DNA from: a bacterium
GTDB lineage: Bacteria; Hinthialibacterota; Hinthialibacteria; Hinthialibacterales; Hinthialibacteraceae
Assembly (NCBI GenBank): GCA_963663405.2
Contig: CAXXSM010000100.1
Span: forward strand, 6,351 to 70,350
DNA length: 64,000 bases
Reading direction: 5' to 3'
Below are positions 1,429 through 61,720 of the stretch, one piece after another. Positions within the stretch are counted from its first letter, which is position 1; every line of letters begins with the position of its first letter. Made by a program: the position numbers and the translations under genes. The notes beneath the pieces were generated by a model. It ran no database searches. It was not told the origin of the DNA and saw nothing but the letters and a program-made list of their open reading frames with translations.

Positions 1429-2133
1429 TCATTTTTTAGCCGATCTATTTTTGTCCCAATCCAGAGTTCGAGCTTTTGCAATTTTTAATTGATTTAGATT
1501 TAAAAATCTCTTTGTCTTTGTAATCATTTCTATGGACCGATGTAAACCGTTCTGAAATGCTAATTCGAACCATACATAGCTTTCCAGAAAATCCTGTTTT
1601 ACACCAGCCCCTTGGTAATACATCATACCTAAGTTATGTTGAGCACCTGGTTCATTTTGTTCGGCAGCTTTTTGATACCATTCAATGGCTTTCTGGTAAT
1701 CCTGATCTAAACCAATCCCATCCTTATACATACAACCCAGATTTAATTGGGCTGGAGCAAAGCCCTGATTGGCTGCTTTCAAATAAAACGCTACAGCTTT
1801 TCTTGTGTTTTTTGTTGTGCCTTGCCCTATCAAGTACATCTCACCAACTATATTTTGCGCCATAGAAAGGCCCTGCAAGGCTGATTTATAATACCAACCG
1901 AAGGCATTTTCATAACTCTGCTCAATGCCGTCACCATTTGCGTGCATAACTCCCAGTGTATACTGGGCATATGCATCTCCGCTTTCTGCTAATGGAATAA
2001 TTTCTTGAAGTGCATTTTGAAACTGCCCCTGTTGTATCTTTATCTCATAGCTTTTTAAATCATTTCCCGAAGTTTTCACGGAAAAAAATACTATGATCAG
2101 CAGTACCATTACCTTGTTTGCTAATTTAACCAT
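1429..2133 (-). CDS. Sel1-repeat (SLR/TPR-like) protein with signal peptide
   Basis: Repeated A.AQ..LG.MY..G.G...D...A..WY.KAA units. The N-terminus MVKLANKVMVLLIIVFF looks like a signal peptide. The ORF track start is 2157; the internal ATG at 2133 has a better RBS. Confidence 0.8.
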   Translation of the reverse strand: MVKLANKVMVLLIIVFFSVKTSGNDLKSYEIKIQQGQFQNALQEIIPLAESGDAYAQYTLGVMHANGDGIEQSYENAFGWYYKSALQGLSMAQNIVGEMYLIGQGTTKNTRKAVAFYLKAANQGFAPAQLNLGCMYKDGIGLDQDYQKAIEWYQKAAEQNEPGAQHNLGMMYYQGAGVKQDFLESYVWFELAFQNGLHRSIEMITKTKRFLNLNQLKIAKARTLDWDKNRSAKK

Positions 2134-2252
2134 TTGGCTACCTTTTGTGGCACACAACGTTTCGCATCACCGGCAACAAAAAGCAGAGCGAGGAACGAGC
2201 GGCGCTTTTTGGTGTCCGAGTGTATGAGCTTGTTGGCTTTCTTTGGTTATAT

Positions 2253-9180: not shown

Positions 9181-9992
9181 ATGACATCTTCTTTTTGCGC
9201 TTATATTGATGAATCAGGAGATGAAGGTTTTCGGTTTTAGAACGAACTTATCCACACAAAAAAGCAGCGATTGGTTTGTTTTAAGTGCTTTCATCACTCG
9301 AAAACAGAATGATTTGGAAACTGTCAAATGTATCGACCAGATTCGTAAAGATTTTGACATTAACCCTAAAAAGCATGTCCATTGGAAAAAAACTGAAACA
9401 CCCTCAAAAAGTACGTTATTCTCAAATTCTTGCTAGTCTTCATGCTCGAACAATTGGAATTTGCGTTCACAAACCTTCTCTTTTAGAACCGGAGAAATTT
9501 AAAGAACCTTATCGCCTTTATTTTTATGCCGTTCGGTATTTGATGGAACGTTTATCTTGGCTTGCTCGTGATAATCATAATCCAAGAAAATGGGGTGGAG
9601 ATGGAACAATTAGTATTCTATTTTCTAATCGGCAAGGAATGCCATACGATGAAATGAAAAATTATCTGAGACTTTTAGAAATTAAAAAAAACAACAATCA
9701 AGATATTCGAATAGAGTTTCAGCATACGCCTTTAAATAAAATTAGCACTCAAACGCCTGGTCGTTCGATGGGATTACAGTTAGCAGACGCTTGTGCTGGA
9801 GCATTTTTCAATGCCTTAGAACGTGACTTATTTGGGAATACAGAACCGCGCTATATCGAATTATTGAAGCAAATTTTATATAAACACGATGGAACATCTT
9901 GGGGTTATGGAACAAAAATAGTACCAAGAGAAGCCATTAACAATTTGAAGGAAGAATCCAGTCTTGAATGGTTGTGGAGGATGAAGGAATAA
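9181..9992 (+). pseudogene. DUF3800-family protein, two frameshifts
   Basis: The ATG at 9181 gives MTSSFCAYIDESGDEGF (the DUF3800 DESG motif) and then a stop. The sequence continues in ORF 9206..9436 and then ORF 9285..9992 (..GLQLADACAGAF..). Removing one T from GGTTTTCGG restores the first junction. Confidence 0.75.
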
Positions 9993-10159
9993 AAAAAAAG
10001 ACAGATCCCAGGTCGTAGGAGCCCACGCACTAAGCGCTGCCGTCCTGAGGACGACCTACGATAAATCCTGCGCATATCTGTCTATTAAAATTATACCCTC
10101 TTTTGAATAAGTTCGTCAACAGAAATTTCAAAAAAAATTGGGGATTGTATTTCGCCTGC

Positions 10160-16674: not shown

Positions 16675-17130
16675 ATGCCAAGACAACCAGTACCTACCAA
16701 CCTAAAGATCCTGCGCGGCAATCCAGGCAAGCGCGCAATCAACAAAAATGAACCGCAGCCGAGCGCGGACGGCGTCAAGTGTCCGTCCTGGTTATCACGC
16801 GACGCCAAGGCCGAGTGGCGGCGTGTGGCGCCGGAGTTAAAGCGGCTCGGCCTATTGACAGTCGTTGACGTGTCCGCGCTGGCAATGTATTGCGAGTCAT
16901 ATTCTCAATGGCGCGAGGCCGTCCGGATTATCGAGCGCGAGGGCCAAACGTATTCACATGACGGACTCATCCGCACTCATCCGGCGTGTCACGTGGCTAA
17001 CAATGCGGCGCGGACGGCTAACCTATTCGCCGGGCAGTTCGGAATGACGCCATCGGCGCGAACGAAATTATCTATCGAGCCGCCACAGCAACCGAGTTTG
17101 GTTGACAAATTTTTGAACCGGAGTGGGTGA
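16675..17130 (+). CDS. Phage terminase small subunit, P27 family
   Basis: ..LKILRGNPGKR.. at the N-terminus and ..FGMTPSARTKL.. at the C-terminus are characteristic of P27-family TerS. Confidence 0.8.
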   Translation: MPRQPVPTNLKILRGNPGKRAINKNEPQPSADGVKCPSWLSRDAKAEWRRVAPELKRLGLLTVVDVSALAMYCESYSQWREAVRIIEREGQTYSHDGLIRTHPACHVANNAARTANLFAGQFGMTPSARTKLSIEPPQQPSLVDKFLNRSG

Positions 17131-17398
17131 TATGGACGGCCTAATTTCACAGAGCCAAGTCGAGGACCAACTCGGTATTAATAAGCTCGCGCTGGACACG
17201 CTCCGGAACTTAGGCGTCCTCATTCCGGTTGACACCGGCGACGGTGAGCCGATGTACAGGCAAAGTGACGTCAGTCCATTTCTATTTTATCGATGCGTGT
17301 ACGTTGACGTAACGCTTGAGCGGGTCCGCGCAATTACAGCGGCGCAAACCGAGACGCCGGAAACTTACAATCCAATGCGGGGTGTAAATAATGGGTAG
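17123..17398 (+). CDS. Small HTH (excisionase/MerR-like) protein
   Basis: ..SQVEDQLGINKLALDTLRNLGVLIPV.. HTH_17-like pattern. Confidence 0.4.
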   Translation: MGDMDGLISQSQVEDQLGINKLALDTLRNLGVLIPVDTGDGEPMYRQSDVSPFLFYRCVYVDVTLERVRAITAAQTETPETYNPMRGVNNG

Positions 17399-19076
17399 AC
17401 AGACTATCGGCCAATTGGTTATTGACTTACAGGCGCAGACGTCCAAATTTCATAGCGATATGAATAAGACGTCACGTATGTGGAATAACAAATTGGATTC
17501 CATGCAGCGGACAGCCAAAAATTTTGGCACTGCCATCAAGGCGTATTTCTCATTTCAGGCGCTAAAAGGTCTATCCAATTTTGTGCAGGATAACATCGCC
17601 TGGGCGTCCTCCATGGCCAAGGTAGCCGATACCGTTGGTCTCTCGCTGGATAAATTCCAAGGCCTCTCGATGATCGTAAAGGAGCTATCCATCGAGCAAA
17701 GCACCTTCGAGCGCGCCATACAGCGAATGACGCGCCGGATCGGCGAAGCAGCCGAGGGAACCGGGACGGCAAAAGACGCATACTCCAAGTTAGGCATCCA
17801 GATTACAGATAGCGCGGGCAAGGTCCGGGATACGTTTTCCATTTTTCTCGACGTGGCGCGCCATTACAAAAAATTAAAAACAGAGGCGGATGAACTAAAC
17901 GTATCCAATCAACTATTTGGCCGTGGGTTTGAGGAGATAAATCTGCTGCTCAGGCAGGGCGCGCCTGCCATCGAAACGCAGATCAAAAAATTCGCGCGCA
18001 TGGGATTGATAATCAAAGATCCGCTCATACGCCAAGCGGAATTAGCGGACGATTCGCTCACAGAAATGAAAGACAGTGTTAGCGCGCTCGGCAAAGAATT
18101 CTCGCTTGTATTGGCTCCGGCGATTAAGACAGCGGCGGACGCCATGAGAACCAATGTAGGCGCAATGCGGCTGCTGTTCTCAAAGGCAACCTGGAATGAC
18201 TGGCTCACGGGCAATCCGCTAAAAACGGCGATCATGTACAACGTTATGTCACCGGCTGAAATGTGGGAAAAATATTACTATGGCGGCAAAGGGAAAAAAC
18301 TACTCGCCTACTCCGGGCTTCGGCTCGTCTAAAGGCGATGACGATTACATGGACGTATTTCCACCGGCGCAGGTAACGAAAACACGCGCCGATTGGATGA
18401 ATGACACTGTTCGCCGGATGAAAGACAATATGGAGTCTCTCACCAATGAAATGCAAATGCAGGTTGACGTCATTCGGGATGAGATGCGCTCGGAGCGGGA
18501 CATATACAATCAGCGATTAGAATTACTCAATCAGGCGCGCTCTATTAACATACTCAACGCCGATGAATTTAATACTATGTCCGAGCATGTAAATAACGTA
18601 TTCAACGGCATGGTAGAGGCCAGCCAGCGTTCTGCTAGATTAATAGAGAGCGGTATATCCGGCGCATTGGAATCAATTGCCAATAACGATCTTAATAATT
18701 TCGTAAATAGTTGGATACGCTCATTTGACAAAATCTTTTTTGATTTGGCCGGGCGGAATATTATCAATTTATTAGAACCAACTATGTTAGGCGCAGGGCG
18801 GGTTCCTAAACTTCGCATTCGGCGGCGTGAGAGCCGCAGGCGGGCCGGTTATGGGCGGCGCGTCCTATCTAGTCGGTGAGCGCGGGGCCGGAGTTGTTCA
18901 CACCGAATATCAGCGGACGGATAACACCGCATGAGCAGATAAAAGGCGCGGGCGATATCAACATTGACACCGGCGGCGCTCCACTATTCACCGTTACAAG
19001 CGGCCATGTAGGGCCACAGAGCGCGGCGCAGTTTAGGACAGGACTTCCTCGAATTCATCGAAGACGCGAGGCGTAA
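17391..19076 (+). pseudogene. Phage tail tape-measure-like protein, split over several frames
   Basis: TP901-type core (..KLGIQITDSAGKVRD..LFGRGFEE..). The C-terminal signature GGPVMGGASYLVGERG / PELFTPNISGRITP can be read only by switching frames around 18800-18890. Covers ORFs 17391..18332, 18280..18879 and 18876..19076. Confidence 0.7.
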
Positions 19077-19080
19077 ACGC

Positions 19081-20309
19081 ATGACTATTATACAACGCAT
19101 AAGACAATACATATGGCCGGAGCGGCGCAGCGAATATGAGAGCGCATGGTACAGCGGCGATCCATTGCCGGAGCGGTTCGGCGCGGCTGGAATTCGTGTC
19201 AACGCTGACAACGCCGTCCAACTAACGGCGGTTTTTCGCGTGTGTGAAAAATATTGAGTGAGACGGTCGCGTCACTTGCCATTGATCCTATACAAGCGCC
19301 TACCGGACGGCGGCAAAGCGCGCGCGGTGGAACATCCGCTATACAAACACGCTCCATGATAGTCCAAATCGTTGGCAGGACGTCGTTAGAATTCCGCAAG
19401 TTACTGCAGAGTCACTTATGTTTGCGCGGGAATGGCTACGCCGAGAAAATACGGCCAGGCGGACGGCTGGAATTGATACCGATCCATCCGGATACCTGCA
19501 CTCCTAAAATGAGTGACAGCGGCGTCATAACGTATGAGGTACAGACGCAGGAACAGCGGCGGACGTTACCGCAGAATAAAATACTGCACTTGCGCGGCAT
19601 TGGCAGTAACGGCCTTGTAGGTTTATCACCAATCGAGATATGCAGGGACGCAATCGGCGCTGGTATGGCAGTACAGCAGTATGGCAGCCGGTTTTTCATG
19701 AACAACGCTAGGCCATCGGGAATTATCGAGTATCCGGGCGTCATGCAGGATAAAGAGGAAATTGCAGCGTTTAAAAAGTCGTGGCAAGAGGCGCAGACGG
19801 GCGCGAATCAACATAAGACGGCCGTCCTTGAGCGCGGCATGACTTACAAGCCGATAGGTATATCCAATGAGGATAGCCAATTCCTTGAGACGCGGAAATT
19901 CAGCGTTGAGGAGATAGCGCGGATATACCGCATACCAATGCATCTTTTACAGTCATTGGACAAGTCGAGTTTTAATAATATCAGTCATCAGTCGATGGAA
20001 TTTCTAACATATACAATGATTCCTTGGTTCCGGCGGTGGGAATCAGTGTTAGCGCGCGATTTACTAACAGCCGAGGAGCGCACAGAGTATTTTTTTGAAT
20101 TCCTTGTCGATGGTTTCCTGCGCGGGGATATCCAGACACGCTATAACGCATACACCAAGGGCCGTCAATGGGGCTGGCTCTCACCTAACGACGTTCGCCG
20201 AATGGAAAACATGAATCCGATCGACGGCGGTGACGAGTATCTTACACCGCTCAATATGCAGGCAATAGGACAGCAAGATAACGGCGCTGACAATGCCGAT
20301 AAAAACTAA
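19081..20309 (+). pseudogene. HK97-family phage portal protein, N-terminal region frameshifted
   Basis: ORF 19254..20309 has portal motifs (..LRGNGYAEKI.., ..FMNNARPSGII.., ..EEIARIYRIP..). The N-terminus (MTIIQRIRQY..AVFRVCEKY) and ..LILYKRLPDGGKARAVEHPLYK.. are in other frames. Confidence 0.8.
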
Positions 20310-20331
20310 CATTTTACCGAGGTAAAAAAAA

Positions 20332-21667
20332 ATGAATGAATTACAGAAATTGCAAGCAAGACAGCGTGAAATTGCGCAGCGTATCATTGACATTAATGAG
20401 GCGGCTGTTTTGGAATCACGGGATTTATCCGAGGATGAAAAAAAGGAATGGCGGGATCTCCGGGCCGAGGAAAAAAAAGAACGCTGAGCGTATCAAGAAA
20501 CTCGAAACCGAGCAGCCAGCCGATGAGCGCAGCGTAGGTATCGAGGCGCTGAGCGCGCAGACGAATGGTGAGAGCCGCCAACGGGCGGCTAACCTGGATC
20601 GCCGGAGTTATCGCGGGATGTTTTGCCGAAATGGTGAACAACTCTCCAACGATGGCTTTTCCTCATTCGAAGAATGGATGGCATGTGTCCACAGTGGCCG
20701 TCCAGACGAGCGTCTGCAGTATCGATCGATGGGCAGCGATATTCCATCTGCAGGCGGTTTTCTCGTACCGGATCAATTCGTAGCCGAAATGTTGGATACC
20801 GGCATTGAGAATGAAATTGTCCGTCCTCGCTGCACTATCTGGCCGATGGTAAGTGACACCGCGCGCGCGCCGGGCTGGGATGGCGCGGATCACTCCAGTT
20901 CGTTATATGGCGGGTTTGCCGGGACGTGGCTCGGCGAGGGCGAGACGGCCACCGAGGTTGACGCGCAGTTTCGTTCCATTGCGCTTACGGCGCACAAATT
21001 GGCAGTCTTTACATCCGCGTCAAGCGAGTTGGTACAAGACAGTTTTCTCTCGTTTGATAGCATCATGAATGACGGTCTGCGCAATGCGCTGTCATGGTTC
21101 CTCGATTATGCGGCCATCAATGGGACCGGCGCGGGCCAGCCGCTCGGATTGGTCAATAACAATTCTGTTGTGTCAGTGGCCAAAGAGTCAGGACAGGCCG
21201 CGTCAACTATCGTGTGGAACAACATCTGCAAGATGTATGCGCGTATGTGGCCAAGTGGCCATCAAAATGCCATCTGGATTGCCAACAATACTATCATTCC
21301 ACAATTGTTGGCGCTTACCATTCCGGTTGGTACCGGCGGAAGTGCAGTCGGTCCTAACATCGGCCATCCAGTAATGAAAGAGGATAGTGGTAGTTTTTCA
21401 CTACTCGGCAAGCCGATTTATTTCACAGAAAAAGCTCAATCTCTGGGCACAGCGGGCGATATTATGTATGTCGATCTCTCACAATACGTCATGGGATTGC
21501 GAAAAGAGATCATTATCGAAAAGTCCAACGCCGTCCATTGGACAAGTGACAAGCAAGCCTACCGCGCCATCATGAGGGCCGATGGTATGGGCAAGTGGAA
21601 TAGCGCCATCACACCGAAAAACGGCGATACGCTTAGTTGGTGCGTAACGCTGGCGGCAAGGTCGTAA
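20332..21667 (+). pseudogene. HK97-family major capsid protein, frameshift in an A8 run
   Basis: The ATG at 20332 gives a coiled-coil delta-domain start (MNELQKLQARQREIAQRIIDINE..RAEEKKER*). The A8 run at 20471-20478 separates it from the frame of ORF 20336..21667 (..AGGFLVPDQF.., ..SELVQDS..). Confidence 0.85.
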
Positions 21668-21673
21668 GCTAAC

Positions 21674-22099
21674 ATGAGGACTTACATTCCGCTCATAGCG
21701 TTGTTAGTCATTCTCGCGGGCGCGGCCTATGGCGCTCATTGGTCATGCACAACAACCGAGGATATATCCTGGTCCGTGCGAAAAATTACATGGTCCTGGA
21801 TATCCAACGCAACCGGCGAGGTGGACGCGCAGACAACCGCGTATTTCTCCGGCGCGCCACTCGGTTTCATTGCCGAGCCAGCGGGCGGGGTATCCGCGCC
21901 ATCGGCTGACTATGATATCTCGATCACCGATGAGAATGAATACGACTTACTGCAGTCGAGCGGGGTGGATATGTCAGCGGCGACTAGCGTCTATATTTTC
22001 GATGCGACGTTGACGCCGATATCGAACGATAGGCTTACATTGCATATCAGAGCTGCCGGGAATGCGAACAGCGGCACGGTGGTTTTGTATCTGCGATAG
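21674..22099 (+). CDS. Hypothetical protein with signal peptide, downstream of the capsid gene
   Basis: MRTYIPLIALLVILAGAAYGA.. hydrophobic leader. No family recognised. Confidence 0.5.
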   Translation: MRTYIPLIALLVILAGAAYGAHWSCTTTEDISWSVRKITWSWISNATGEVDAQTTAYFSGAPLGFIAEPAGGVSAPSADYDISITDENEYDLLQSSGVDMSAATSVYIFDATLTPISNDRLTLHIRAAGNANSGTVVLYLR

Positions 22100-22180
22100 G
22101 GTTTCATCCAACCTGCTCGGCTTGTCCATTCCGTGCGGGTAGGTTTTGGTCTCGCCGTTCTCAGGCGGGCTTCGTCGAAC

Positions 22181-22219
22181 AGCCGGGCGCACTACATATG
22201 ATGTAGCCGCGTCCGGCTC
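22181..22219 (+). terminator. Hairpin after the structural operon
   Basis: AGCCGGGCGCACTACAT-ATG-ATGTAGCCGCGTCCGGCT forms an imperfect long stem followed by CTCCTTTT. Confidence 0.4.
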
Positions 22220-22317
22220 TCCTTTTAAAAATGCGCTCTAACGGGCGCTCTCTCTCGCTCGTGGTTTCTATCGGAAAATTCGAGAAGTCCTCACCTGCGC
22301 AGCGAGGCTTGGCCGTT

Positions 22318-23490
22318 CTAGCCGTTTTCCGCTTTCGCCTGTACGTCCGCAAACGATATGATTTTCGATCCATGTTTCCCCAACGCCTCACGCAGCGGGT
22401 CCTGTGCTAGATGCGCGTAGACTTCGGTTGTGCTGAGCGTGGATTGATTCAACGCCTTGCCAACGAGTATCAGCGACTCCCCGGAGGACGCCAGCCAGGA
22501 GCCTACCGTCCTGCGCAGATCATGGATTCGCAGCGTTGGCATTCCGGCGCGGTTGCGGATGCGATGCCATTGGCGCTTTGGAAATATCGCCCAGTGTTTC
22601 GATGGATCGGGGCCGGGGAATATCCATTTACAATTATCGATTCGGGGAATCATTTCGAACATGCCGAGAGCGGCAGTGCTGAGCGGCAAATAAAACGGGC
22701 GGCCTGCCTTTGTATCGTCCAACTTGAGAATCCTTTGCTCACGATCTAAGTCTTTCCATTCTCGCCGCATTAATTCACGATTCCGTAGGCCGGTTAAGAG
22801 GTACAGCCACAGTCCGGCGCGTACGACGGGATTCCACTCCTCATTAATCGCGGCGGCCAATTTAGGTAATTCGTCCGGCGTTACCCACACGTCCCGTTTT
22901 TCCTCTCGATTTTTCTTTATCCGTCTCGCCGGGCTGACGTTATCCTCTTTCAGGAAACCTTCGTTGATTGCGTATGAGTGTATGCGCGAGACGAGAGAGA
23001 CAATTCTATTGGCTTCGATGGGCGCGGTTTTCGATATACGATCATGTATTTTTTCTGATATCCGGGCGGGTGATCGAATCGGCTTTTTTCTTTCCAAGTT
23101 CGGGGCGCAGGTGTTTTTTCAATCCGGCGGCGGTCCTGAACGCCGGTTTTCAATTTCGATGCGTGGCGGGTTAAATAATCGTCAAGAATATCATTGAATG
23201 TTACCGATGGCTTGCCGCGCTTATCTGGATTGTTTACCGGCGGCAATGGTGAGATTCTTTATTCCAGCAATCTGACGCGCCTTCTCCGGCGTGATATTCG
23301 GATATTTTGCGATTGTGATCCATTTCAATTTTCCTTCCCACCGATAGCAGTAGACGAAAGACTTTTGACCGGATTTAAAAAACACGCAGACCGAAATGTG
23401 CGGTTTTCCGTATCCCAGATTATGCCAGGTGTTTTTACTGACTCGCAGAGGTGAGTTGTTATTTTTTTTTTCATAACAGTGGGCCTCCAA
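22318..23490 (-). pseudogene. P4-type tyrosine integrase (DUF4102-like N-terminus), three or more frameshifts at A runs
   Basis: N-terminus ..SFVYCYRWEGKLKWITIAKYPNITPEKARQ.. (23221..23490). Middle ..NPDKRGKPSVTFNDILDDYL.. (frame of 22950..23246). Catalytic part ..LRNRELMRREWKDLD.., ..RIHDLRRTVGSWL.., ..LSTTEVYAHL (22318..23097). Confidence 0.85.
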
Positions 23491-23640
23491 AAAAATAACA
23501 GTGGTTCTAACAGTGGGCCGTTTGAGCTAACACCAAGCTAACACATATGTCTATTTCTGTCCATATCGGAAAATGTAAAAGTAAAAATTTCCTAGGAAAA
23601 ACGGGGATTTGTATATGTCTGTCCATGTAGGGGCGATTGC

Positions 23641-23706
23641 CTTCTAAGCAGTGGGCCGCAGGTTCGAGTCCTGCCGGGCGTATACTGAAAATTCTAGACT
23701 TACGAA
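23641..23706 (+). repeat. tRNA-Arg(UCU) 3' fragment = att core, right copy
   Basis: 48 nt identical to 8755-8802. The 5 nt upstream (ATTGC) would complete the anticodon stem with GCAGT, but no acceptor 5' strand (ACGCCCG) or canonical D-arm is present. Confidence 0.85.
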
Positions 23707-23792: not shown

Positions 23793-23970
23793 ACTCTTAG
23801 ATCTTTTCCCAGTTTGAATATAATAAATCAATTCATCTCGGCAGGATCAGAAATTACCATTCAAACAAAATTCAAAAATCCCCGCCAGCTGCGCTAGCGC
23901 AGCAAAAAGACAAAAGCAAAGAGTATAAAGTGTCAAAGTGCAAAGGGTAAAAGCGATACAGCAAAAAGCG

Positions 23971-24791
23971 CTAATAAGTCCGGGAATACACAACTCGCAA
24001 ACCTATGACGTCGTCCCTGAGATCTGGGGCCCTGTCGAACCGGTACGCCGATCGGCAGTTCTCTGGATTGTAGAACCAGGAACCGCCCCGAAACACACGA
24101 GCTGCCCCACGGGGTGAATCAATCCAAGCGGAACCATCTTGAGGCGCCTCTTTGTAATTCTCATGCCAATCATCTTCACACCATTCCCGCACATTTCCGC
24201 TCATATCACAAAGCCCCCATAGATTTGGGGATTTTTCTACCTACTTGCTTCGTTTCCTCTTATCACATTATTGTCCGGATACCACGCATAATTCCATATT
24301 TCTCGATAATCATCATCCTCTCCCCAATAAAAGCGTGTCTTCGTTCCCGCCCGGCATGCGTATTCCCATTCCGCTTCGCTTGGAAGGCGAAATGTTCCTT
24401 GACCGAGTTGATTCAATTCAGTAATGAATCTTTGACAATCATCCCAGGAGACAGATTCAACTGGATGATCGGGTTTCCCTTTAAATTCAGAAGGATTCTC
24501 ACCCATCACAGCTTTCCATTGCGCCTGGGTGACGGGATATTTACCAAGATAACAATCATAATCTATTTTGACTATATGCTGTGGACTTTCATCATCATAT
24601 CGACCTTTCTCATTCTTTGGACTTCCCATCTTGAATCTACCCTTGGGTATATGAACAAATTCGATAGGAATCGATTCATTTGGCAAATTCGGTAATTGAA
24701 TGATGATGGTGTCCACGTTCATGTATTTCGAATGCGTCTCGTTTCTTAATTTGGATTTGAGGAACTTTCGTTTGCTCATTCCACGGTTCAA
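23971..24791 (-). CDS. FGE-sulfatase (SUMF1-like) domain portion of target 1 (two fragments), carries VR1
   Basis: ..FVHIPKGRFKMGSP..ESPQH..VTQAQW..VSWDDCQRF..FRLPSEAEWEYACRAG.. and ..MSGNVREWCEDDW..RGGSW..CRSA..R. Confidence 0.85.
23981..24110 (-). repeat. DGR variable repeat VR1
   Basis: Gap-free 130-nt match to the TR. All 20 mismatches (hand count) are at TR adenines (plus-strand T). Confidence 0.9.
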
Positions 24792-25489
24792 TCAAGAGTG
24801 TTTCTTCCAGCCATCTTCGTTTCTCATCTGCAACTGAACATTCCGTAAGCAGACAATCCATTAACAATTCCGATGATTGCATGTATTGGATAATATTCGA
24901 CAAATCTTCTGGAACTTGCAATGGATTCGAGAAATCAATATCAACGTGTGGATCAAACGATCGTTTTTCATTTTTTCTAAATAGGCTCTGGACAAATTCA
25001 CGTATTTCATCACTTCCCGAAGTTGCGAATAAAGCAAGCATTTTATTGACGGAATGAGGATTTGAATTGCTGGAACAAATACAACCTTCAAGATTCTGAA
25101 GAAGCCCAATCACTTCATCATTGGCAAGTTTTGAAATTCCCCGGCGCATAGAAATCAAAAATGAGTATGGATCGCTTAGTTTCTTCCGTTATCAATAAAA
25201 AAAACTTCACGCCATCGCTGTTCCCGCATATGCCGTTCAATAATGGAATCAAGATTCTGGGGATGTTCAACAATCCACAACGCGGTTAAATACTCATGGA
25301 AAGTGAGATGAGAGAAGGAATAGATATGCCTAGCGCGTTCAACCAACAAACCATGATGGCTTTCAATGGAACAAAGCAAAGTTCGACTATCAGTCAGTGC
25401 AATTCCTTTTTCAAATTGAAAAGTTTGTTGAAGGTAATGGGAAATATTATTTTCCAGAGATCTCCGTTTCATAAAAATAGTGTTCTTCA

Positions 25490-27049
25490 TTAAAAACTTT
25501 GATACGCCAATTCTGTCAATAATGAAATTTTAATCTCTTCTGTGAACGACTCTACAACATCAGGCCGTACGATCCCTCTTGTTAAATCCCATTCACGTAT
25601 TAACAAATCGAATGTTTCTCGATATAAATCAGCGCGGCTGGATGGAAACCGTTCTTTTTCAGAATTAGAAAAGACCCAACATAATAATGTTAGAAGCAAT
25701 GGATTTGTAGCTAACTCTAGAAGAGATCGATTCCTATTAATTTCATCATAACACTTTTGTGCTTTTTGGGGATTCTTTTTAAACCAGTTTTGTATAAATG
25801 TTCTGATCTGATCTTCATTAAAGTCCGCCACTTCAACTAAAGTAAATTTTTCAAAGGTTCTGTTATAAGCGGCAAGACGACAGCTAATGATAAAACGGTT
25901 TTTGTTATATCGTTTTGTAAACAAACGAATGGTCTGCACGGCTTCAGCTATTGTACTAAATGAAACCTCATCCAAACCATCCATAATAACTACACAATTC
26001 CCTTTTCTTAGATGCTGGCTGGTAAACTGCATTGCATCTTTAACATCTGCATCTTCAAATTGTTTGGAAATAAATTCAAGTATTGTGTTTTTGCTATCAG
26101 ACCATTCTTTTAAACTTATGAATATGGGTATCTTTTGTTTGTGAAGTTTTCCTTTAAGTATCTCAATGGTTATATATTTAAAAAAAGTAGTTTTCCCCGC
26201 TCCCGGTTTTCCTAATACCATCAAATGGTCATCGTTATCTTTTAATATTTCTATCCCTTCTACGGATTTATTTGAAGACGGATATTGACGCTGCTCGTTT
26301 GATCGAAACTGTTTCTCTAGTTCACTTAACTCAACGGATTGCTCTTTTGTGATCTTCTCAAGAATATGAACTTTAACATATATCGAATCCAAGGATATAT
26401 CTTTATCCATTCCTAAAATCTGAATCGAACTATTGTTCTCATAAATCTTATTTTTATAGGTTTTTAAGTCATGCTCAAAAACTTGCGTTTCTAAAACTGG
26501 TTCGTGAGTAAAAAAAATCTTTGAATCGATATTCGATGTATATAGTTTTATCTCTCCAAGAGGTGGTATTTCTATTTGATGAGTCATAAAACGATATAAA
26601 GTAATGTACTCTCTTTGAATAGATACATTAAAATATCCATAAATCTGCATGAATTCTGGAATATATAAATCCCATTCCGCATGAAAGACAATCGGAATGT
26701 ATTTTTCATTTAATGATTTCTGTTTATATAATTTATAATTAATATTTTGTAATTCTCTAAAACTTCCACGTTTATCAGATTTAGAATATTGTTCTGAACA
26801 TACTATTAATACAAAATCCGCTTTTTCGATTTGTTCAGACATCCAATCGAGCCATCCTTTAGGTGGGAACGGCTCATATTGGTCTATCCAACAATCTAAA
26901 CCATCATATCGAAGTTGATTCGCAAATGACAAAACAAGTTCACTATGCTCATTTGTTTCATGGCAATAGCTGATAAATACTCTTATTTTTTTGGGATAAT
27001 TTTCCATTTTTTTGTTCCAAGACATTTTCCTAGAAATTCTCTTATTCAA
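25490..27049 (-). CDS. TIR-superfamily (SEFIR-like) + NACHT P-loop NTPase fragment of target 1
   Basis: The N-terminus IRVFISYCHETNEHSELVLSFANQLRYDGLDCWIDQ..ADFVLIVCSEQY is TIR/SEFIR-like. Walker A is VLGKPGAGKTTF; Walker B is VVIMDGLDEV. Confidence 0.85.
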   Translation of the reverse strand: MNKRISRKMSWNKKMENYPKKIRVFISYCHETNEHSELVLSFANQLRYDGLDCWIDQYEPFPPKGWLDWMSEQIEKADFVLIVCSEQYSKSDKRGSFRELQNINYKLYKQKSLNEKYIPIVFHAEWDLYIPEFMQIYGYFNVSIQREYITLYRFMTHQIEIPPLGEIKLYTSNIDSKIFFTHEPVLETQVFEHDLKTYKNKIYENNSSIQILGMDKDISLDSIYVKVHILEKITKEQSVELSELEKQFRSNEQRQYPSSNKSVEGIEILKDNDDHLMVLGKPGAGKTTFFKYITIEILKGKLHKQKIPIFISLKEWSDSKNTILEFISKQFEDADVKDAMQFTSQHLRKGNCVVIMDGLDEVSFSTIAEAVQTIRLFTKRYNKNRFIISCRLAAYNRTFEKFTLVEVADFNEDQIRTFIQNWFKKNPQKAQKCYDEINRNRSLLELATNPLLLTLLCWVFSNSEKERFPSSRADLYRETFDLLIREWDLTRGIVRPDVVESFTEEIKISLLTELAYQSF

Positions 27050-27268
27050 GTTTCATCACAAAATAGAGGGCCGCCTAAGCAGGACGTTCGGCCAACACCT
27101 ACCAGCCCCGCCCAGGCCTTTCAATCTTTGTCCGGCAGCCTCGAACGGCCCTCATTGTTCGAACGGCTGCGCGATGCGGGAATATACCTATGGACTCCTC
27201 TTAGTACGCTCAAGGCATCCGTAAATGACTTGACTCTGACCGTGAGAATACCATTCTCACAAGGAGCG

Positions 27269-27398
27269 CGGGAATACACAACTCGCAAACCTATGTTGTT
27301 GTTCCTGTTATCTGGGGTCCTGTTGTTCCGGTTCGCCGATCGGCAGTTTTCTGGATTGTTGTTCCAGGAACCGCCCCGAATCACACGAGCTGCTCTTT
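27269..27398 (-). repeat. DGR template repeat (TR)
   Basis: Translates (non-functionally) to [40 protein letters not shown], with about ten AAC codons. It overlaps the 3' end of the RT ORF. ORF 27121..27384 in the track is this repeat, not a gene. Confidence 0.9.
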
Positions 27399-28463
27399 CC
27401 TGATATATCCCCTTTCTTTACAATTTTTGCGTTTTCGAATAAAGACGTACGTAATCCCCATGAATCGGCATGTGAGACATGACCGATCCAACTGACAACC
27501 GATTGCGTCACATCAAACAATGCGATTTGCTTCTCACGATATTGAACGCGCAATTTCTTGAATCTTTTCAAAAACCGGTGGCCATTGCCATTCCGCACTA
27601 ATACATGACTGGGAAAAACACGATAACCCAGAAAATCAATCCCATCTCTAACCGGAACAACATGCGCGCAGTTTTCATGAATGGATAAATGGTTCTGATT
27701 CAACAAATAGTCAGAGATTTCGTTTTTGATTTCATACAATCGTTGTTTTGAATGATGCAGGACAAGCATATCATCCACATAGCGCAGGTAGGCTTTCACT
27801 CCCAAGGTCTCTTTCACAAAATGATCGAATGGATTCAGATAGACGTTAGCAAAAAATTGGCTGGTTAAATTACCGATTGGAATCCCCAAAGGCCCGTCAA
27901 AATTCAATAGATAATTCCCACGATCGTCAATCGGGTGAGGCTCACGGTAGCTGCGCAGTATATGACGTATTAACCATAAGATGGATTGATCGCCGATTTT
28001 CCGGGAGAGAATTGAGAATAATAAATCCTGTCGAATACTCTGGAAATACTTTCGTATATCTATTTTGATGGAGTACGGATAGTGTTGGATCAACGTTTTC
28101 AATCGATTCACCGCCGCATGAGTCCCTTTACCTTTACGGCATGCGTAGGAATCAGAGATAAACGATCGCTCGAAAATCGGTTCGATGATATTGCAAAAGG
28201 GCATGATGAACGATACGATCACGATAGGGAGCGGCGCTGATGGTTCTTTTCTTCCCTTCATTAATGACAAATTCCCGATACCCTCCATGTTGATACGTCT
28301 TTGTCTCTAATTCACGCTGTAACCGTAAGATCTCTCGCTCAAAATTGAGGTTAAATAGACTCACTTCAAAGCGGAATCGCTTCCCCTTTTGCGCTTTTTT
28401 GGACGCCAGCAATAAATTTTGAAAATCCCTTAGTTGGGGATAAAGGTTTTTATAACGTTTCAT
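27308..28463 (-). pseudogene. DGR-type reverse transcriptase, one frameshift near 28190-28200
   Basis: N-terminal ORF 28152..28463 (..[17 protein letters not shown]). It continues in ORF 27308..28288 ([26 protein letters not shown].., IGNLTSQFFANVYL, YLRYVDDMLVL). The junction lies at GCCCTTTTGC. Confidence 0.85.
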
Positions 28464-28804
28464 GCTTTCGCCTGCTGCTTGATCCAGCCTCCCAACATAG
28501 ATCCCACTTCATCTAAAATTTCAGAGATATACTTGTATCGGCGGAGATCAACAAATTTAAGATCTTTAGCCAATCTCGCCAAGAAACGGAATTTCTCCAA
28601 ATCTAAATTCGCGCGTTTCAGTAGAGCAATTTTCGAGCGTGAATACGAAGCTTCCACCAAAAGATCCAAGATCTCCAACAATACATTTTCCATACGGGAG
28701 CCAATCGTATATCGCTTATTTTTGGGGAATTTTTCAATCAAAGGCATCATCCAAAGAATGATGTCATACATTTTCTGCACGATAGCGGGGTGATTGCTTT
28801 TCAC
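28460..28804 (-). CDS. avd: Avd (accessory variability determinant), four-helix-bundle protein
   Basis: ..[33 protein letters not shown].. is typical of the four-helix-bundle (Avd / 23S-IVS protein) family. GGAGGA lies 5 nt upstream of the GTG at 28804. The 3' end overlaps the RT start. Confidence 0.8.
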
Positions 28805-28920
28805 GTGAATCCTCCAATTTAAAAAATATTCGCGAGCTGCGCTAACGCGCAGCAAAAAGACAAAAGCAAAAAGTATAAAGAGTCAAAGTGCAAAGGGTAA
28901 AAGCGATACAGCAAAAAGCG

Positions 28921-30157
28921 CTAATAAGTCCGGGAATACACAACTCGCAAACCTAAGTAGTTGACCCAGCTAACTGGGGACCTGAAGAACCGGAACGCCG
29001 ATCGGCAGCAGTCTGGATTGTAGTACCAGGAACCGCCCCGAATCACACGAGCGCCTCTACGGGGTGAATCAATCCAAGCGGAACCATCTTGAGGCGCCCC
29101 TTCAAAATTCTCATGCCAATCATCCTCACACCATTCCAGCACATTCCCGCTCATATCATAAAGCCCCCATGAATTCGGTTTCTTTTTCCCCACAGGATGT
29201 GTTTTTTGAGAAGAATTTCCAGTAAACCATGCAAACTGATTTATTTCTTTGATACTCAGGATCATCTCCCCAATAGAACCGCGTGCTTGTACCTGCCCGG
29301 CAAGCGTATTCCCATTCCGCTTCGCTTGGAAGACGGAACGTTCCTTGACCGAGATCATTCAATTTTTTGATGAAATTTTGACAGTCATCCCATGATACGC
29401 ATTCGACTGGGCGATTTGTGTTTCCCTTAAAATTAGCAGGATTCTTACCTAAAACCGCTCTCCATTGTTTTTGAGTTATTGGATATTTCCCTAAATAGAT
29501 ATCATGAGGAATAGTCACTTGATGCTGCGGACTTTCATATTCAGATCTATCTTTTTCTTTTTCCGGACTTCCCATCATGAAGGAACCTGCAGGAATTTTG
29601 CACAATAATAGAGGAACAGATTTACCTGTTGAACTGGGGATTTTAAATTCGATCTCGGAAGATTCATCTATAACTGGTTCGATTGATTTTAAAGGCGGTT
29701 CTACTATTGATGTAGTTGTATCCCTTTCAGGAGGTCCTTCTTCATCCGGCTTGTTTGGTTTGGAAGGTGTTCCGATTAATGATTGAATGGACTTGATAAG
29801 GTTATCAAAGTCTGTATTAGGTGTCCCCTTTTTCCAGCCGGTAAGATCAACCGTTTTAAGATCTCTGAATCCAAAAGGAGGACGTACTTTTTCAATGAAT
29901 ATTGGCCTTAAAATATTTTTATTTAGACCTTCTCTTGCCTCTTCTTTTACCCACTTGGATTTAATAGACGATTCTGACCAAAGCACGATAACACAATGGG
30001 TATTGTCAAGTTCAGCGTCGATAAAATCATAGATATTTTCTGCTATCGGGACTTCTCGATCCCAAAAAACAGACCACCCCCGCGATTGCAATTCTTCAGC
30101 GATAACCTTCGCAATTGCAATATCGTCACTTTTATAGCTAATAAAAATATCACTCAT
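28921..30157 (-). pseudogene. DGR target 2: TIR domain fused to FGE-sulfatase (C-type lectin fold) domain, one frameshift near 29260
   Basis: The N-terminus MSDIFISYKSDDIAIAKVIAEELQSRGWSVFWD..VIVLWSESSIKSKWVKEEA is a TIR. This is followed by a PSKPNKPDEEGPP linker, then ..CKIPAGSFMMGSP..ESPQH..RLPSEAEWEYACRAG.. . The C-terminal fragment ORF 28921..29358 carries VR2. Deleting one base in GAGTATCAAAGAA restores ..DDPEYKEINQFAWF. Confidence 0.85.
28931..29060 (-). repeat. DGR variable repeat VR2
   Basis: Gap-free 130-nt match to the TR. 22 of 23 mismatches (hand count) are at TR adenines. Confidence 0.9.
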
Positions 30158-49856: not shown

Positions 49857-50183
49857 TCAATCCTCTTCCAGTTCTTCATAGACAAAAGTCTTCACTTCTT
49901 CCCCTGCGCTCTTCACAGTGACGATTTTTCGCTTATACAATTCTCCTTCATCTTCGTAGTCATCTAGAATCATAAAAGTTTTATCATCTAAACCAAATAT
50001 AATTTCACCTTCAATTTCTCCAGAATCATCTGGATGAATTACAGGATGCCCAAATTTTGGGCTTGTGAACGCGTATCCCTTCAAGATCGCCTTCTTTCTC
50101 CGCTGGAGGCGAAGTCCGGTGATTTCCTCGAATGTTTTTTCATCCAGGAGCGATCCATAGACAAAGAGATTCTTCACATTCAT
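49857..50183 (-). CDS. Gamma-glutamylcyclotransferase (AIG2/GGACT-like) family protein
   Basis: LFVYGSLLDEKTFEEITG.. N-terminal signature. Confidence 0.65.
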   Translation of the reverse strand: MNVKNLFVYGSLLDEKTFEEITGLRLQRRKKAILKGYAFTSPKFGHPVIHPDDSGEIEGEIIFGLDDKTFMILDDYEDEGELYKRKIVTVKSAGEEVKTFVYEELEED

Positions 50184-50188
50184 GGTTC

Positions 50189-51805: not shown

Positions 51806-52384
51806 AACTCGTTTAATTGGTTAAGTTTATTATTCGAACAATCAAATCCGCCTTGATTCCGCGGCGTGTTTGTGGTTCAAGGTTATATTGAGGGCTAGTA
51901 TAGACGAAACGGCAAAAAACAAAACTGAAATATTCGCTTATAAAATTAGTATTATTAACTATCTATTATATTAAATTTACCTGAGTTTCGTGTCGAACAG
52001 CGCGAAGCAAGATATGGATGAGCAGCCGTGAAGGCTGTTTTACTGGTTGCAGGTCCGTTTTTCCTCCGCGCCTGGAATGAACTTCAAGTTGTTCGTATCT
52101 TTCGACGCGATGGCGAATATCCCATAAATATTGCATCTGAATACATTTTTAAATGTAAGCGCAGGGTAACATATCCGTAAACACAGAGTAAAATACTCAA
52201 TAAGAATTAAGAATTTTATGGAAATTTAGATTTAATTGATTTGTAATTATGGCGATTACAAATACTTTCTTGTAAAGCAGCCTTCATGGCTGCCCGATCT
52301 TGCGTGAAAACAATCTGAAAGATAAATTCGTAGATTCACTTTGATTGAATCTCAATAAAACCACTTTGAGTCGAGAACAAAAGT

Positions 52385-55908: not shown

Positions 55909-55954
55909 TACTAGGGGATTAGGTAGAAGGCTGAAGACTGAAGGAAGACGAAAA

Positions 55955-55987: not shown

Positions 55988-56012
55988 GATTGAAGCCGGT
56001 GGTTGGTTAAAA

Positions 56013-61714: not shown

Positions 61715-61720
61715 AGAAAA

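What the first reader, a model, noticed from the sequence alone, without database searches (positions are those of the whole stretch)
27269..27398. Template repeat and two variable repeats that differ almost only at adenines: the DGR signature
The 130-nt segment 27269-27398 (coding sense on the minus strand) aligns without gaps to 23981-24110 (VR1) and 28931-29060 (VR2). By my hand alignment, all 20 TR/VR1 mismatches and 22 of 23 TR/VR2 mismatches fall on plus-strand T, which is an adenine of the minus-strand template. C, G and T positions of the template are conserved. Translated, the TR reads [40 protein letters not shown]. VR1 reads [40 protein letters not shown]. VR2 reads [40 protein letters not shown]. 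The TR holds about ten AAC codons, the codon that gives the widest amino-acid spectrum under A-to-N mutagenesis. The last 23 nt (GGTTTGCGAGTTGTGTATTCCCG) are identical in all three copies even though they contain adenines, as expected for an IMH-like homing end.
Basis: partly seen in the sequence, partly recalled or inferred. Interest (0 to 1): 0.9.

Follow-up and report, generated by a model that had tools for sequence, protein, structure and literature searches.

The report
Diversity-generating retroelement with immune-type targets
This is a genuine, complete diversity-generating retroelement, a reverse-transcriptase system that rewrites the tips of two lectin-fold sensor proteins linked to TIR and NACHT immune domains; it belongs to an already described kind, and several of its genes carry single-base frameshifts in this assembly.

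Summary
The template repeat (TR) at 27269-27398 (minus strand) aligns without gaps to VR1 (23981-24110) and VR2 (28931-29060). All 20 mismatches to VR1 and 22 of 23 to VR2 fall on template adenines (P about 1e-12 each). About half of the 41 adenines are substituted in each copy.

The repeats sit in a full DGR cassette on the minus strand, in this order:
- TIR-CLec target carrying VR2
- avd
- RT
- TR
- a roughly 200-nt structured RNA
- SEFIR/TIR-NACHT gene
- CLec target carrying VR1

The RT's best solved homologue is the Bordetella phage bRT. Avd passes NCBI's curated DGR-Avd model. The targets resemble the Treponema DGR target TvpA.

The RNA after the TR is conserved, with compensatory changes, in 17 related loci. 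It forms a covarying long-range duplex that brackets the TR, like the published 'cPRT Stop' duplex.

Gene order (avd-RT-TR) and target type (CLec sensors with STAND NTPase or TIR domains) are both published, so this is a new member of a known kind.

One caveat remains. Seven single-base homopolymer indels interrupt the RT, both targets and the NACHT gene. I cannot tell sequencing error from recent decay, so current activity is unproven.

The parts
27269..27398 (-). Template repeat (TR). Core homology runs from 27396 to 27269. It has 41 adenines and 10 AAC codons, and it overlaps the read-through tail of the RT ORF.
23981..24110 (-). VR1, the last 43 codons of CLec target 1. It has 20 substitutions, all at TR adenines.
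28931..29060 (-). VR2, the last 43 codons of the TIR-CLec target 2. It has 22 substitutions at TR adenines and 1 at a C.
28921..30157 (-). Target gene 2: an N-terminal TIR domain plus an FGE-sulfatase/CLec domain, 411 aa after removing one A from an A-run at 29236-29257.
28460..28804 (-). avd (accessory variability determinant), 114 aa. The GTG start has a GGAGGA ribosome-binding site, and the stop overlaps the RT start (ATGA).
   Evidence: NF033474, 116 bits against a cut-off of 80
27308..28463 (-). DGR reverse transcriptase. A +1 T at 28190-28202 splits it into ORFs of 103 aa and 326 aa. An A5 run at 27424-27428 probably removes the natural stop, so the ORF reads on into the TR.
27066..27268 (-). 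Structured RNA immediately 3' of the TR, the analogue of the BPP-1 'Sp' spacer. The covariance-model match covers 27249-27066. An extra hairpin lies at 27260-27242.
27402..27412 (-). Upstream strand (GGGGATATATC) of an 11-bp long-range duplex that brackets the TR. Its partner is 27188-27178.
27178..27188 (-). Downstream strand (GGTATATTCCC) of the long-range duplex, the analogue of the 'cPRT Stop' duplex.
27194..27200 (-). Invariant GAGGAGU, part of the conserved GAGUCCA motif. It can pair with GCUCCUU at 27267-27261, directly 3' of the TR. This is a candidate template:primer duplex.
   Evidence: function inferred
24676..27049 (-). SEFIR/TIR-NACHT-NCH2 STAND NTPase gene, 791 aa after repairing two 1-nt deletions at 25482-25504 and 25173-25196. 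It is either fused to CLec target 1 or overlaps it.
23971..24791 (-). CLec (FGE-sulfatase fold) target 1, which carries VR1. A possible own start is the ATG at 24722. There are two +1 insertions, at 24244-24263 and 24222-24241.
28836..28930 (-). Conserved region downstream of VR2 (28847-28930), followed by the GC-rich hairpin GCTGCGC-GTTA-GCGCAGC (28853-28836).
23888..23980 (-). Conserved region downstream of VR1, 97.6% identical to the VR2 copy over 84 nt, followed by a GC-rich palindrome at 23903-23888.

Best explanation
The three repeats are the template repeat and two variable repeats of a diversity-generating retroelement with the known avd-RT-TR gene order.

**Shown here**
- The adenine-restricted TR/VR differences.
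- The DGR-type RT and Avd.
- The position of both VRs at the C-terminal ends of two paralogous C-type-lectin-fold (FGE-sulfatase) proteins.
- A conserved, covarying RNA structure attached to the 3' side of the TR.

**Inferred by analogy with the Bordetella phage system**
1. A transcript carrying the end of the RT gene, the TR and the 200-nt downstream RNA folds so that segments on either side of the TR pair (27412-27402 with 27188-27178).
2. The sequence just 3' of the TR pairs with the invariant GAGGAGU.
3. RT-Avd then self-primes and copies the TR into cDNA, misincorporating at about half of the adenines.
4. The cDNA replaces VR1 or VR2, using the invariant 3' end and the conserved sequence downstream of each VR.

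Up to 20 codons can vary, giving about 10^18 possible proteins per target. These codons lie in the ligand-binding face of sensors that are coupled to a TIR domain (target 2) and to a SEFIR/TIR-NACHT STAND NTPase (next to or fused with target 1). The most likely role is therefore a hypervariable recognition module of an anti-invader, cell-suicide type system, as proposed by Dore et al. 2024.

In this assembly seven single-base homopolymer indels interrupt the RT (two), both targets (three) and the NACHT gene (two). The element is therefore either mis-sequenced here or recently inactivated with its VRs frozen.
For: - **TR/VR pattern:** mismatches are restricted to adenines. 49% and 54% of adenines are substituted, matching the roughly 50% reported for bRT-Avd (PMC6182149).
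- **RT:** it hits Bordetella phage bRT (8ub7) at E 9e-53 over its full length, against 8e-18 for group II intron RTs. It falls below the curated cut-offs of the group II, retron and Drt models.
- **Avd:** it scores above the curated cut-off of NF033474 and matches Pfam bAvd.
- **Targets:** they match FGE-sulfatase/CLec, with TvpA (2y3c) at 4.6e-30.
- **Relatives:** the closest intact RT relative with an intact target on its contig, L086, has the same target-avd-RT-TR layout, and its own VR has 18 A and 2 non-A mismatches.
- **RNA local structure:** a model built from 4 sequences finds 14 more loci at E below 1e-5, always on the RT strand and next to the TR, whether the TR lies before or after the RT. 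93% of cells are paired and 41 of 49 pairs show compensatory changes. RNAalifold independently predicts 33 pairs, all with compensatory changes.
- **RNA long-range duplex:** it is at least 9 bp in 12 of 17 loci, against 1.6 expected from shuffles, and its sequence covaries between loci.
- **Homogenisation:** VR1 and VR2 agree at 88 of 89 non-adenine sites, while the rest of the two CLec domains is only 75% identical. This is as expected if retrohoming keeps overwriting the VRs.
- **Literature:** the avd-RT-TR order is architecture B2 (PMC5758913). CLec targets with NACHT, KAP or TIR domains are described (PMC10907252). The Sp RNA elements are described (bioRxiv 10.1101/2023.10.23.563531).
Against: - The RT and both target ORFs are interrupted by 1-nt indels. 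The same truncated RT and NACHT products appear as gene calls from a 72-kb public contig, so the indels are in the deposited sequence.
- There are no reads, so ongoing diversification is not shown.
- No IMH/IMH* pair is delimited.
- The GC hairpins lie about 77 nt after the VRs. Their loops (GTTA, CTAG) do not fit the GRNA consensus or the 4-34 bp spacing of phage DGRs.
- Whether target 1 is fused to the NACHT protein is unresolved.
- The priming site and the immune role are inferences.
- The pair counts for the RNA were made on an alignment fitted to the model. RNAalifold was run on that same model-fitted alignment; only the long-range duplex test does not depend on its pairing.
Confidence: 0.93

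Rival explanations
1. A decayed DGR relic. The cassette was active until recently, but real frameshifts have now inactivated the RT and the targets. VR1 and VR2 are frozen snapshots. This is a sub-case of the main explanation and concerns only present activity.
For: - Seven 1-nt indels lie in 6.2 kb of the cassette, against none in 26 kb of long ORFs elsewhere in the window.
- Housekeeping genes (proS, rseP) are intact here, although a related, error-prone assembly breaks them.
- The neighbourhood is mobile-element debris: a scrambled prophage remnant, an integrase and a transposase.
- Relatives L081-L084 also keep only a VR remnant with no target.
Against: - All seven lesions are single-base length changes in homopolymer runs.
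- There is not one in-frame stop in about 1800 repaired codons.
- Only 1 non-adenine mismatch occurs in 178 VR sites.
- This pattern also fits homopolymer sequencing error, or a very recent event.
- The 'intact' comparison set was chosen because the ORFs are long, which biases it.
Confidence: 0.45
2. Ordinary diverged paralogue fragments. The three copies would be leftovers of duplicated CLec genes that drifted apart, with no retroelement involved.
For: Targets 1 and 2 are indeed paralogues: their flanks are 75-92% identical.
Against: - 42 of 43 differences from the TR lie on template adenines (P about 1e-12 each).
- Non-adenine sites are 88/89 identical between the VRs, while the adjacent coding sequence is 75-92% identical.
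- The third copy lies in non-coding context right after a DGR RT and has no CLec domain upstream.
Confidence: 0.01
3. A phage-borne DGR that diversifies a receptor-binding protein for tropism switching, belonging to the prophage remnant next door at 16.6-23.1 kb.
For: Terminase, tape-measure, portal, capsid and integrase genes lie directly beside VR1. The prototype DGR is phage-encoded.
Against: - The targets carry TIR and SEFIR/NACHT cytoplasmic signalling domains, not tail-fibre domains.
- An integrase (22318-23097) and a tRNA-like sequence (23615-23682) separate the phage genes from the cassette.
- GC content drops from 0.51 to 0.38-0.42 at that border.
- The RT's relatives sit in chromosomal contigs of Anaerolineae, cyanobacteria and others, next to NTPase-CLec genes.
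Confidence: 0.03
4. The RT belongs to another bacterial RT class (retron, Drt/UG defence RT, or group II intron), and its position next to the repeats is a coincidence.
For: Generic RT models of these classes give sub-threshold hits: TIGR04416 at 143 bits, PADLOC RT_UG17 at 4.6e-43.
Against: - All of those scores are far below the curated cut-offs (143 against 300, 72 against 200, 54 against 235).
- The full-length best match is bRT.
- The DGR-specific motif IGNLTSQ is present.
- A DGR Avd gene is translationally coupled to the RT.
Confidence: 0.01

Closest known systems
Bordetella phage BPP-1 DGR (mtd-avd-TR-brt), the prototype
   Same: - The RT is homologous over its full length (8ub7, E 9e-53).
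- An Avd partner is present.
- TR-to-VR changes are adenine-specific, at about 50% of adenines.
- The VR lies at the C-terminus of a CLec-fold protein.
- The RNA 3' of the TR contains a duplex that brackets the TR and a strand able to pair with the 3' end of the TR.
   Different: - The gene order here is avd-RT-TR, not avd-TR-RT.
- There are two targets, which are cytoplasmic-type signalling proteins rather than a tail fibre.
- No (G/C)14 IMH is present.
- The GC hairpin lies about 77 nt from the VR rather than 4 nt, and its loop is not GRNA.
- About 7 nt, not 2 nt, separate the putative primer strand from the stop-duplex strand.
DGR lineage diversifying CLec 'antigen sensors' fused to STAND NTPases (Dore et al. 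2024, PNAS, PMC10907252; clade 5D, e.g. Thiohalocapsa PB-PSB1 DGR 3 and 6)
   Same: - There are two target genes, each with a single C-terminal FGE-type CLec domain.
- The cassette is associated with a NACHT STAND NTPase, and a close relative has KAP NTPase.
- TIR is present as an N-terminal effector.
- RT relatives are found mostly in filamentous Chloroflexota and cyanobacteria.
   Different: - Placement of this RT in clade 5D was not tested by phylogeny.
- ProS similarity puts the host among uncultured Omnitrophota- or Hinthialibacterota-labelled MAGs, which are not known to be multicellular.
- One target is a short TIR-CLec protein with no NTPase.
- Fusion of NACHT to CLec in target 1 is not established.
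- The genes are frameshifted here.
Treponema denticola TvpA DGR
   Same: The target's variable domain is the FGE-sulfatase subtype of the CLec fold (2y3c, E 4.6e-30 over the VR-bearing half).
   Different: TvpA is a surface lipoprotein, and its DGR uses an HRDC accessory gene (architecture C). Here the accessory gene is Avd and the targets have TIR/NACHT contexts.
Architecture B2 (avd-RT-TR) of Wu et al. 2018 (PMC5758913)
   Same: The core order avd, RT, TR lies on one strand, with targets flanking the core.
   Different: Nothing essential. This is the catalogued variant with one target upstream and one downstream of the core.
bSEFIR / bacterial NACHT (Avs-like) antiphage STAND NTPases
   Same: The 791-aa protein upstream of CLec target 1 has SEFIR/TIR, NACHT and NCH2 domains. 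It matches the PADLOC bSEFIR model at 2.7e-35.
   Different: Known bSEFIR and bNACHT proteins are not DGR-diversified. Here the candidate sensor domain (CLec with VR1) is encoded immediately after the NTPase or fused to it.

Membership tests
Diversity-generating retroelement (DGR) | Near-identical template and variable repeats whose differences are restricted to template adenines | tested here: met
   20/20 and 22/23 mismatches fall at TR adenines, with no gaps and P about 1e-12 each.
Diversity-generating retroelement (DGR) | Reverse transcriptase of the DGR clade (motif 4 [I/L]GxxxSQ, catalytic YxDD; closest to bRT) | tested here: met
   IGNLTSQ and YVDD are present. bRT 8ub7 matches at E 9e-53 over the full length, against 8e-18 for the next class. 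Scores are below the curated cut-offs of the group II, retron and Drt models. No phylogeny was made.
Diversity-generating retroelement (DGR) | VR at the 3' end of a protein-coding target with a CLec (or Ig) fold | tested here: met
   Both VRs form the last 43 codons of FGE-sulfatase-domain ORFs. TvpA matches at 4.6e-30.
Diversity-generating retroelement (DGR) | Accessory gene (Avd, HRDC, MSL or CH1) beside the RT | tested here: met
   NF033474 DivGenRetAVD scores 116 bits against a cut-off of 80. Pfam bAvd matches at 1.5e-21.
Diversity-generating retroelement (DGR) | RNA elements flanking the TR that support self-primed cDNA synthesis (a duplex bracketing the TR, and pairing between the TR 3' end and Sp) | tested here: met
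   Structure and covariation were shown in 18 loci. The function of these elements is inferred from Handa et al..
Diversity-generating retroelement (DGR) | IMH/IMH* and a GC-rich hairpin/cruciform close to the 3' end of the VR | tested here: inconclusive
   - The 3' 23 nt are invariant, and TR and VR diverge right after CCCG.
- The 84 nt after both VRs are 97.6% identical, and a motif in them is shared with relatives.
- GC hairpins exist but lie about 77 nt away, have non-GRNA loops, and look like terminators.
Diversity-generating retroelement (DGR) | Intact RT and target reading frames, and ongoing diversification | tested here: not met
   Frames are broken by seven 1-nt indels in this sequence. 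Diversification between reads or populations cannot be tested without reads.
DGR-diversified STAND-NTPase antigen sensors (Dore et al. 2024, clade 5D type) | Two targets with single C-terminal CLec domains | tested here: met
   Target 1 and target 2 each have one FGE-sulfatase domain carrying one VR.
DGR-diversified STAND-NTPase antigen sensors (Dore et al. 2024, clade 5D type) | Central STAND NTPase (NACHT, nSTAND1 or KAP) fused to the diversified CLec domain | tested here: inconclusive
   - The NACHT-NCH2 ORF ends at 24676, and full-length homologues end at the position equivalent to 24784.
- The CLec frame opens at 24791, with a possible ATG at 24722.
- This fits either a fusion needing one more frameshift or two overlapping genes.
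- Relative L086 has KAP_NTPase fused to FGE-sulfatase.
- Target 2 has no NTPase.
DGR-diversified STAND-NTPase antigen sensors (Dore et al. 2024, clade 5D type) | RT placed in the 'clade 5' lineage, with a multicellular host | not tested
   No tree was built with their reference RTs. The nearest RTs come from Anaerolineae, cyanobacteria, KSB1 and others. The host's ProS is 68-73% identical to proteins from Omnitrophota- and Hinthialibacter-labelled MAGs, whose morphology is unknown.

The most novel reading that the evidence does not exclude
The roughly 200-nt RNA that travels with the TR may be a defined, widely conserved RNA family of this cellular DGR lineage that is not yet catalogued. Its parts are P1 pairing to the TR 3' flank, the conserved GAGUCCA linker, the covarying TR-bracketing duplex, an A-rich CAAA-AUAAA strand, and a terminal stem with GUAGG...GCCGAA. 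There is no Rfam match. If so, the priming and stop sites of cellular DGRs could be read directly from sequence. In addition, the cassette would be a working hypervariable TIR/NACHT immune receptor pair in a candidate phylum not known to be multicellular, which would extend the 'antigen sensor' idea beyond multicellular bacteria.
Probability: 0.3. Interest if true: 0.5.

Novelty: new member of a known kind. Interest (0 to 1): 0.35.

Why it matters
This adds one more well-resolved example of a DGR aimed at TIR- and NACHT-linked lectin-fold sensors, the class proposed to act as hypervariable antigen receptors in bacteria. The host here appears to belong to a poorly known candidate phylum.

The comparative by-product may be more useful than the locus itself. 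The RNA attached to the TR shows strong covariation across distant hosts, and it keeps its place next to the TR whether the TR lies before or after the RT. This gives a sequence-level handle on where cDNA synthesis starts and stops in cellular DGRs. It could also serve as a search model for TRs.

The frameshifts matter in practice. Automatic DGR finders that require an intact RT ORF would miss or truncate this element.

Tried and rejected
- **Retrieving the window's own contig.** Exact look-ups were made with eight proteins: six of the window's own products (a capsid-family protein, ProS and four versions of Avd) plus the database calls P0001 and P0121. All failed, and the cluster look-up gave no accession. 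The organism is therefore placed only by ProS similarity.
- **Scans for closer RT relatives.** The genome and metagenome scans found nothing above 50% identity. The 61-63% relatives came only from the protein database.
- **Rfam.** No family matches the TR region even at E up to 10.
- **Single-sequence folding.** Folding the post-TR RNA alone is not better than shuffles (z = -0.74). Only the comparative analysis shows the structure.
- **Promoter scan.** Hits do not exceed chance (20 against 19.4). The promoter-like hexamers inside the conserved VR-downstream block are therefore not claimed.
- **Hairpins after the VRs.** They do not fit the published cruciform rules.
- **An independent assembly.** L167 is a 96.9%-identical relative of the proS region and is itself error-prone. 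It covers only 50-64 kb, so it does not settle whether the cassette's indels are real.
- **Rejected readings.** Paralogue drift, a phage tropism DGR, and a retron, Drt or group II RT were all rejected (see the rival explanations).

Full report
**1.

Read on the minus strand, 27269-27398 aligns without gaps to 23981-24110 and to 28931-29060. There are 20 mismatches to the first and 23 to the second. All 20, and 22 of the 23, lie on adenines of the 27269-27398 copy. The exception is a C>G six bases from the 5' edge.

That copy has 41 A in 130 nt. The hypergeometric probability of such a restriction is 1.6e-12 and 1.1e-12.

Of the 41 adenines, 13 are changed in both copies, 7 only in VR1, 9 only in VR2, and 12 in neither. 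That is 49% and 54% substituted per copy. It matches the roughly 50% measured for the Bordetella enzyme in vitro and in vivo (PMC6182149).

Changes occur at all three codon positions and include a synonymous GAA>GAG. This argues for a mutational origin.

Homology begins at about 27396-27398 and stops abruptly at 27269. With the adenines masked, no further copy exists in the 64 kb.

**2. What surrounds the repeats**

On the minus strand the order is as follows.

- **Target 2 (30157-28921).** It has an N-terminal TIR domain (PF13676, 3.7e-21) and an FGE-sulfatase/CLec domain, with VR2 as its last 43 codons.
- **avd (28804-28460).** The GTG start has a GGAGGA ribosome-binding site. It scores 116 bits on NCBIfam NF033474 'diversity-generating retroelement protein Avd' against a cut-off of 80, and it matches Pfam bAvd.
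- **RT (from 28463).** Its ATG overlaps the avd stop. After one frame correction it gives a 351-aa protein with IGNLTSQ and YVDD. Its best solved homologue is Bordetella phage bRT (8ub7, E 9e-53, residues 2-343 against 3-321). Group II intron RTs score 8e-18. It falls well below the curated cut-offs of the group II, retron and Drt models.
- **TR (27398-27269).**
- **A conserved non-coding stretch of about 200 nt.**
- **A SEFIR/TIR-NACHT-NCH2 gene (27049-24676).** Its N-terminal part matches the PADLOC bSEFIR model at 2.7e-35.
- **CLec target 1 (24791/24722-23971),** ending in VR1.

The CLec domain of target 2 matches the Treponema DGR target TvpA (2y3c, 4.6e-30) and formylglycine-generating enzymes.

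The TR encodes 20 variable codons, about 10^18 possible proteins. Only one codon, at its edge, can mutate to a stop.

VR1 and VR2 agree at 88 of 89 non-adenine positions, while the N-terminal parts of the two CLec domains are only 75% identical. This is what repeated overwriting from one TR would produce.

**3. Relatives**

The RT has thousands of homologues. The closest intact ones are 61-63% identical. Their loci have avd-RT followed by a TR (L081-L084, L086); the L085 contig starts just upstream of the RT, so only RT followed by a TR is seen there. In L086 a KAP-NTPase/FGE-sulfatase target precedes avd. Its VR differs from its TR at 18 adenines and 2 other sites.

More distant RTs (41-50% identity) come mostly from Anaerolineae and other Chloroflexota, filamentous cyanobacteria, KSB1 and Bacteroidota.

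The avd-RT-TR order is architecture B2 of Wu et al. (PMC5758913). CLec targets joined to NACHT, nSTAND1 or KAP NTPases, some with TIR effectors and often two per locus, are the theme of Dore et al. 2024 (PMC10907252). The locus is therefore a new member of a described kind.

**4. The RNA attached to the TR**

The 200 nt after the TR are conserved in the 61-63% relatives (nhmmer, E 4e-11 to 3e-24; alignment). RNAalifold on four sequences gave 49 pairs, 14 of them with compensatory changes. Rfam has no match.

A covariance model built from these four hits the window once (27249-27066). At E below 1e-5 it also hits 17 other loci: the three other sequences it was built from and 14 further loci among the 166 RT-related loci. 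Every hit is on the RT strand.

In some loci the hit lies downstream of the RT (for example L013, L045, L003, L072, L036, L023, L143). In others it lies upstream (L137, L088, L130, L038). The element therefore goes with the TR, not with the RT gene.

On the 18-sequence alignment 93% of cells are paired, 41 of 49 pairs have changes on both sides, and the covariation score is 0.59 against 0.08-0.15 for slid partners. That alignment is fitted to the model. RNAalifold run on the same model-fitted alignment predicts its own consensus of 33 pairs, all with compensatory changes.

A conserved single-stranded linker (GAGUCCA...) separates the helices.

- **3' half of the linker.** It pairs with a segment just 5' of the TR. 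In the window, GGGGAUAUAUC (27412-27402) pairs with GGUAUAUUCCC (27188-27178). The paired sequences differ between loci but stay complementary: AUAUG/CAUAU, GUAGAC/GUCUAU, ACAGG/CCUGU, GCAGG/CCUGC, GUAGG/CCUAC and GCGGUC/GACCGC. Twelve of 17 loci have an uninterrupted helix of at least 9 bp, against 1.6 expected from shuffled linkers.
- **5' half of the linker.** The sequence G(A/G)(A/G)GAGU pairs with (C/G)ACUC(U/C)(U/C) directly after the end of the TR. In the window this is 27200-27194 pairing with 27267-27261. An extra hairpin (27260-27242) is inserted there in the window, L085 and L081.

[quoted passage not shown] Handa et al. predicted such elements in many DGRs.

The structure and covariation are shown here. 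The roles in priming and termination are inferred.

**5. Downstream of the VRs**

The 84 nt after the two stop codons are 97.6% identical. They share a motif with the VR-downstream regions of L086 and L081: TTCCCGGACT, GCGCTTTT, and CTTTT(A/G)CCCTT(T/G)G.

A 6-7 bp GC hairpin followed by a T-run lies about 77 nt after each VR. This could be a terminator or the DGR target hairpin. It does not match the spacing (4-34 bp) or the GRNA loop described for phage DGRs. I leave it open.

**6. The frameshifts**

Four genes are interrupted. Seven single-base changes, all in short homopolymer runs, restore them.

| Gene | Site | Change needed |
|---|---|---|
| RT | 28190-28202 | remove a T |
| RT C-terminus | 27424-27428 | A5 to A4; this recreates a stop aligned with the relatives' stops, just before the duplex strand |
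| Target 2 | 29236-29257 | remove an A |
| NACHT | 25482-25504 | add a base |
| NACHT | 25173-25196 | add a base |
| CLec 1 | 24244-24263 | remove a base |
| CLec 1 | 24222-24241 | remove a base |

After repair there is no in-frame stop in about 1800 codons. The database's own gene calls from a 72,345-bp public contig show the same truncated RT (298 aa) and NACHT protein (505 aa). The indels are therefore in the deposited sequence.

- **For real decay.** There are none in 26 kb of long ORFs elsewhere, although that set is biased. proS and rseP are intact here, while a related assembly breaks them. The neighbourhood is mobile-element debris.
- **For artefact or a very recent event.** All lesions are homopolymer indels, there are no nonsense codons, and the VRs are almost free of non-adenine changes.

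I cannot decide without reads. This affects only whether the element works now, not what it is.

**7. Host and context**

ProS is 68-73% identical to proteins of MAGs labelled Omnitrophota and Candidatus Hinthialibacter. The host is therefore an uncultured bacterium of a candidate phylum.

The cassette is AT-richer (GC 0.38-0.42) than its flanks (0.48-0.52). It abuts an integrase and a tRNA-like sequence. This suggests an acquired island.

**8. Verdict**

This is a correct call of a DGR, and here it is extended to a complete anatomy. It is a new member of a known kind, and interest is moderate to low. The most useful extra is the covarying RNA bound to the TR. The main open point is whether the frameshifts are real.

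Noticed in passing
window 23897-23980 and 28847-28930 (minus strand); L086:1569-1700; L081:4885-5040: The non-coding 84 nt after both VRs are 97.6% identical, more conserved than the coding sequence upstream. They share the motif TTCCCGGACT..GCGCTTTT..CTTTT(A/G)CCCTT(T/G)G with DGR relatives whose RTs are only about 62% identical. This may be a target-recognition element. Each copy also contains a promoter-like TTTACC-18-TATACT.
   Followed up: partly
window 16675-23097: A scrambled prophage remnant. It holds a small terminase fragment, a tape-measure N-terminal fragment, a portal lacking its N-terminus, a capsid (20336-21667) and a tyrosine integrase on the opposite strand (22318-23097).
   Followed up: partly
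window 23615-23682 (+): A tRNA-like sequence just above Rfam's threshold (31.3 bits against 29) that ARAGORN does not call. It lies between the integrase and VR1 and may be an attachment-site remnant marking the island border.
   Followed up: partly
window 9995-10082 (-) and 9285-9992 (+): A strong match to the Rfam DUF3800-VII RNA (82 bits). It abuts the 3' end of an ORF with a weak DUF3800 hit, but lies on the opposite strand.
   Followed up: no
window 27416-27430 (minus strand): The RT ORF has no stop where its relatives stop, and it runs 33 codons into the TR. Removing one A from the A5 run gives ...FENAKL*, which aligns with ...FNQAVI* of L081 and ends right before the duplex strand GGGGATATATC.
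   Followed up: yes
L081-L084 (ENA metagenome contigs): Relatives with avd-RT-TR plus the RNA, but only a VR remnant upstream of avd (L081:4791-4870) and no intact CLec target. They are flanked by transposases and a serine recombinase. This may be a DGR core being moved or decaying.
   Followed up: partly
L167 (ENA contig ctg73401l) against window 50133-64000: A 96.9%-identical relative of the proS-rseP region from another sample. It carries many extra single bases that split rseP and proS, so that assembly is error-prone while the window's copies are intact.
   Followed up: yes
window 71-934 (+), 1429-2157 (-), 57969-59569 (+): A DDE transposase fragment at the window start, a Sel1-repeat protein, and a Peptidase_M78/DUF4411 pair (weak hit, far below the curated cutoff, to the spr1629 repressor/antitoxin family). 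These are further accessory or mobile content.
   Followed up: no
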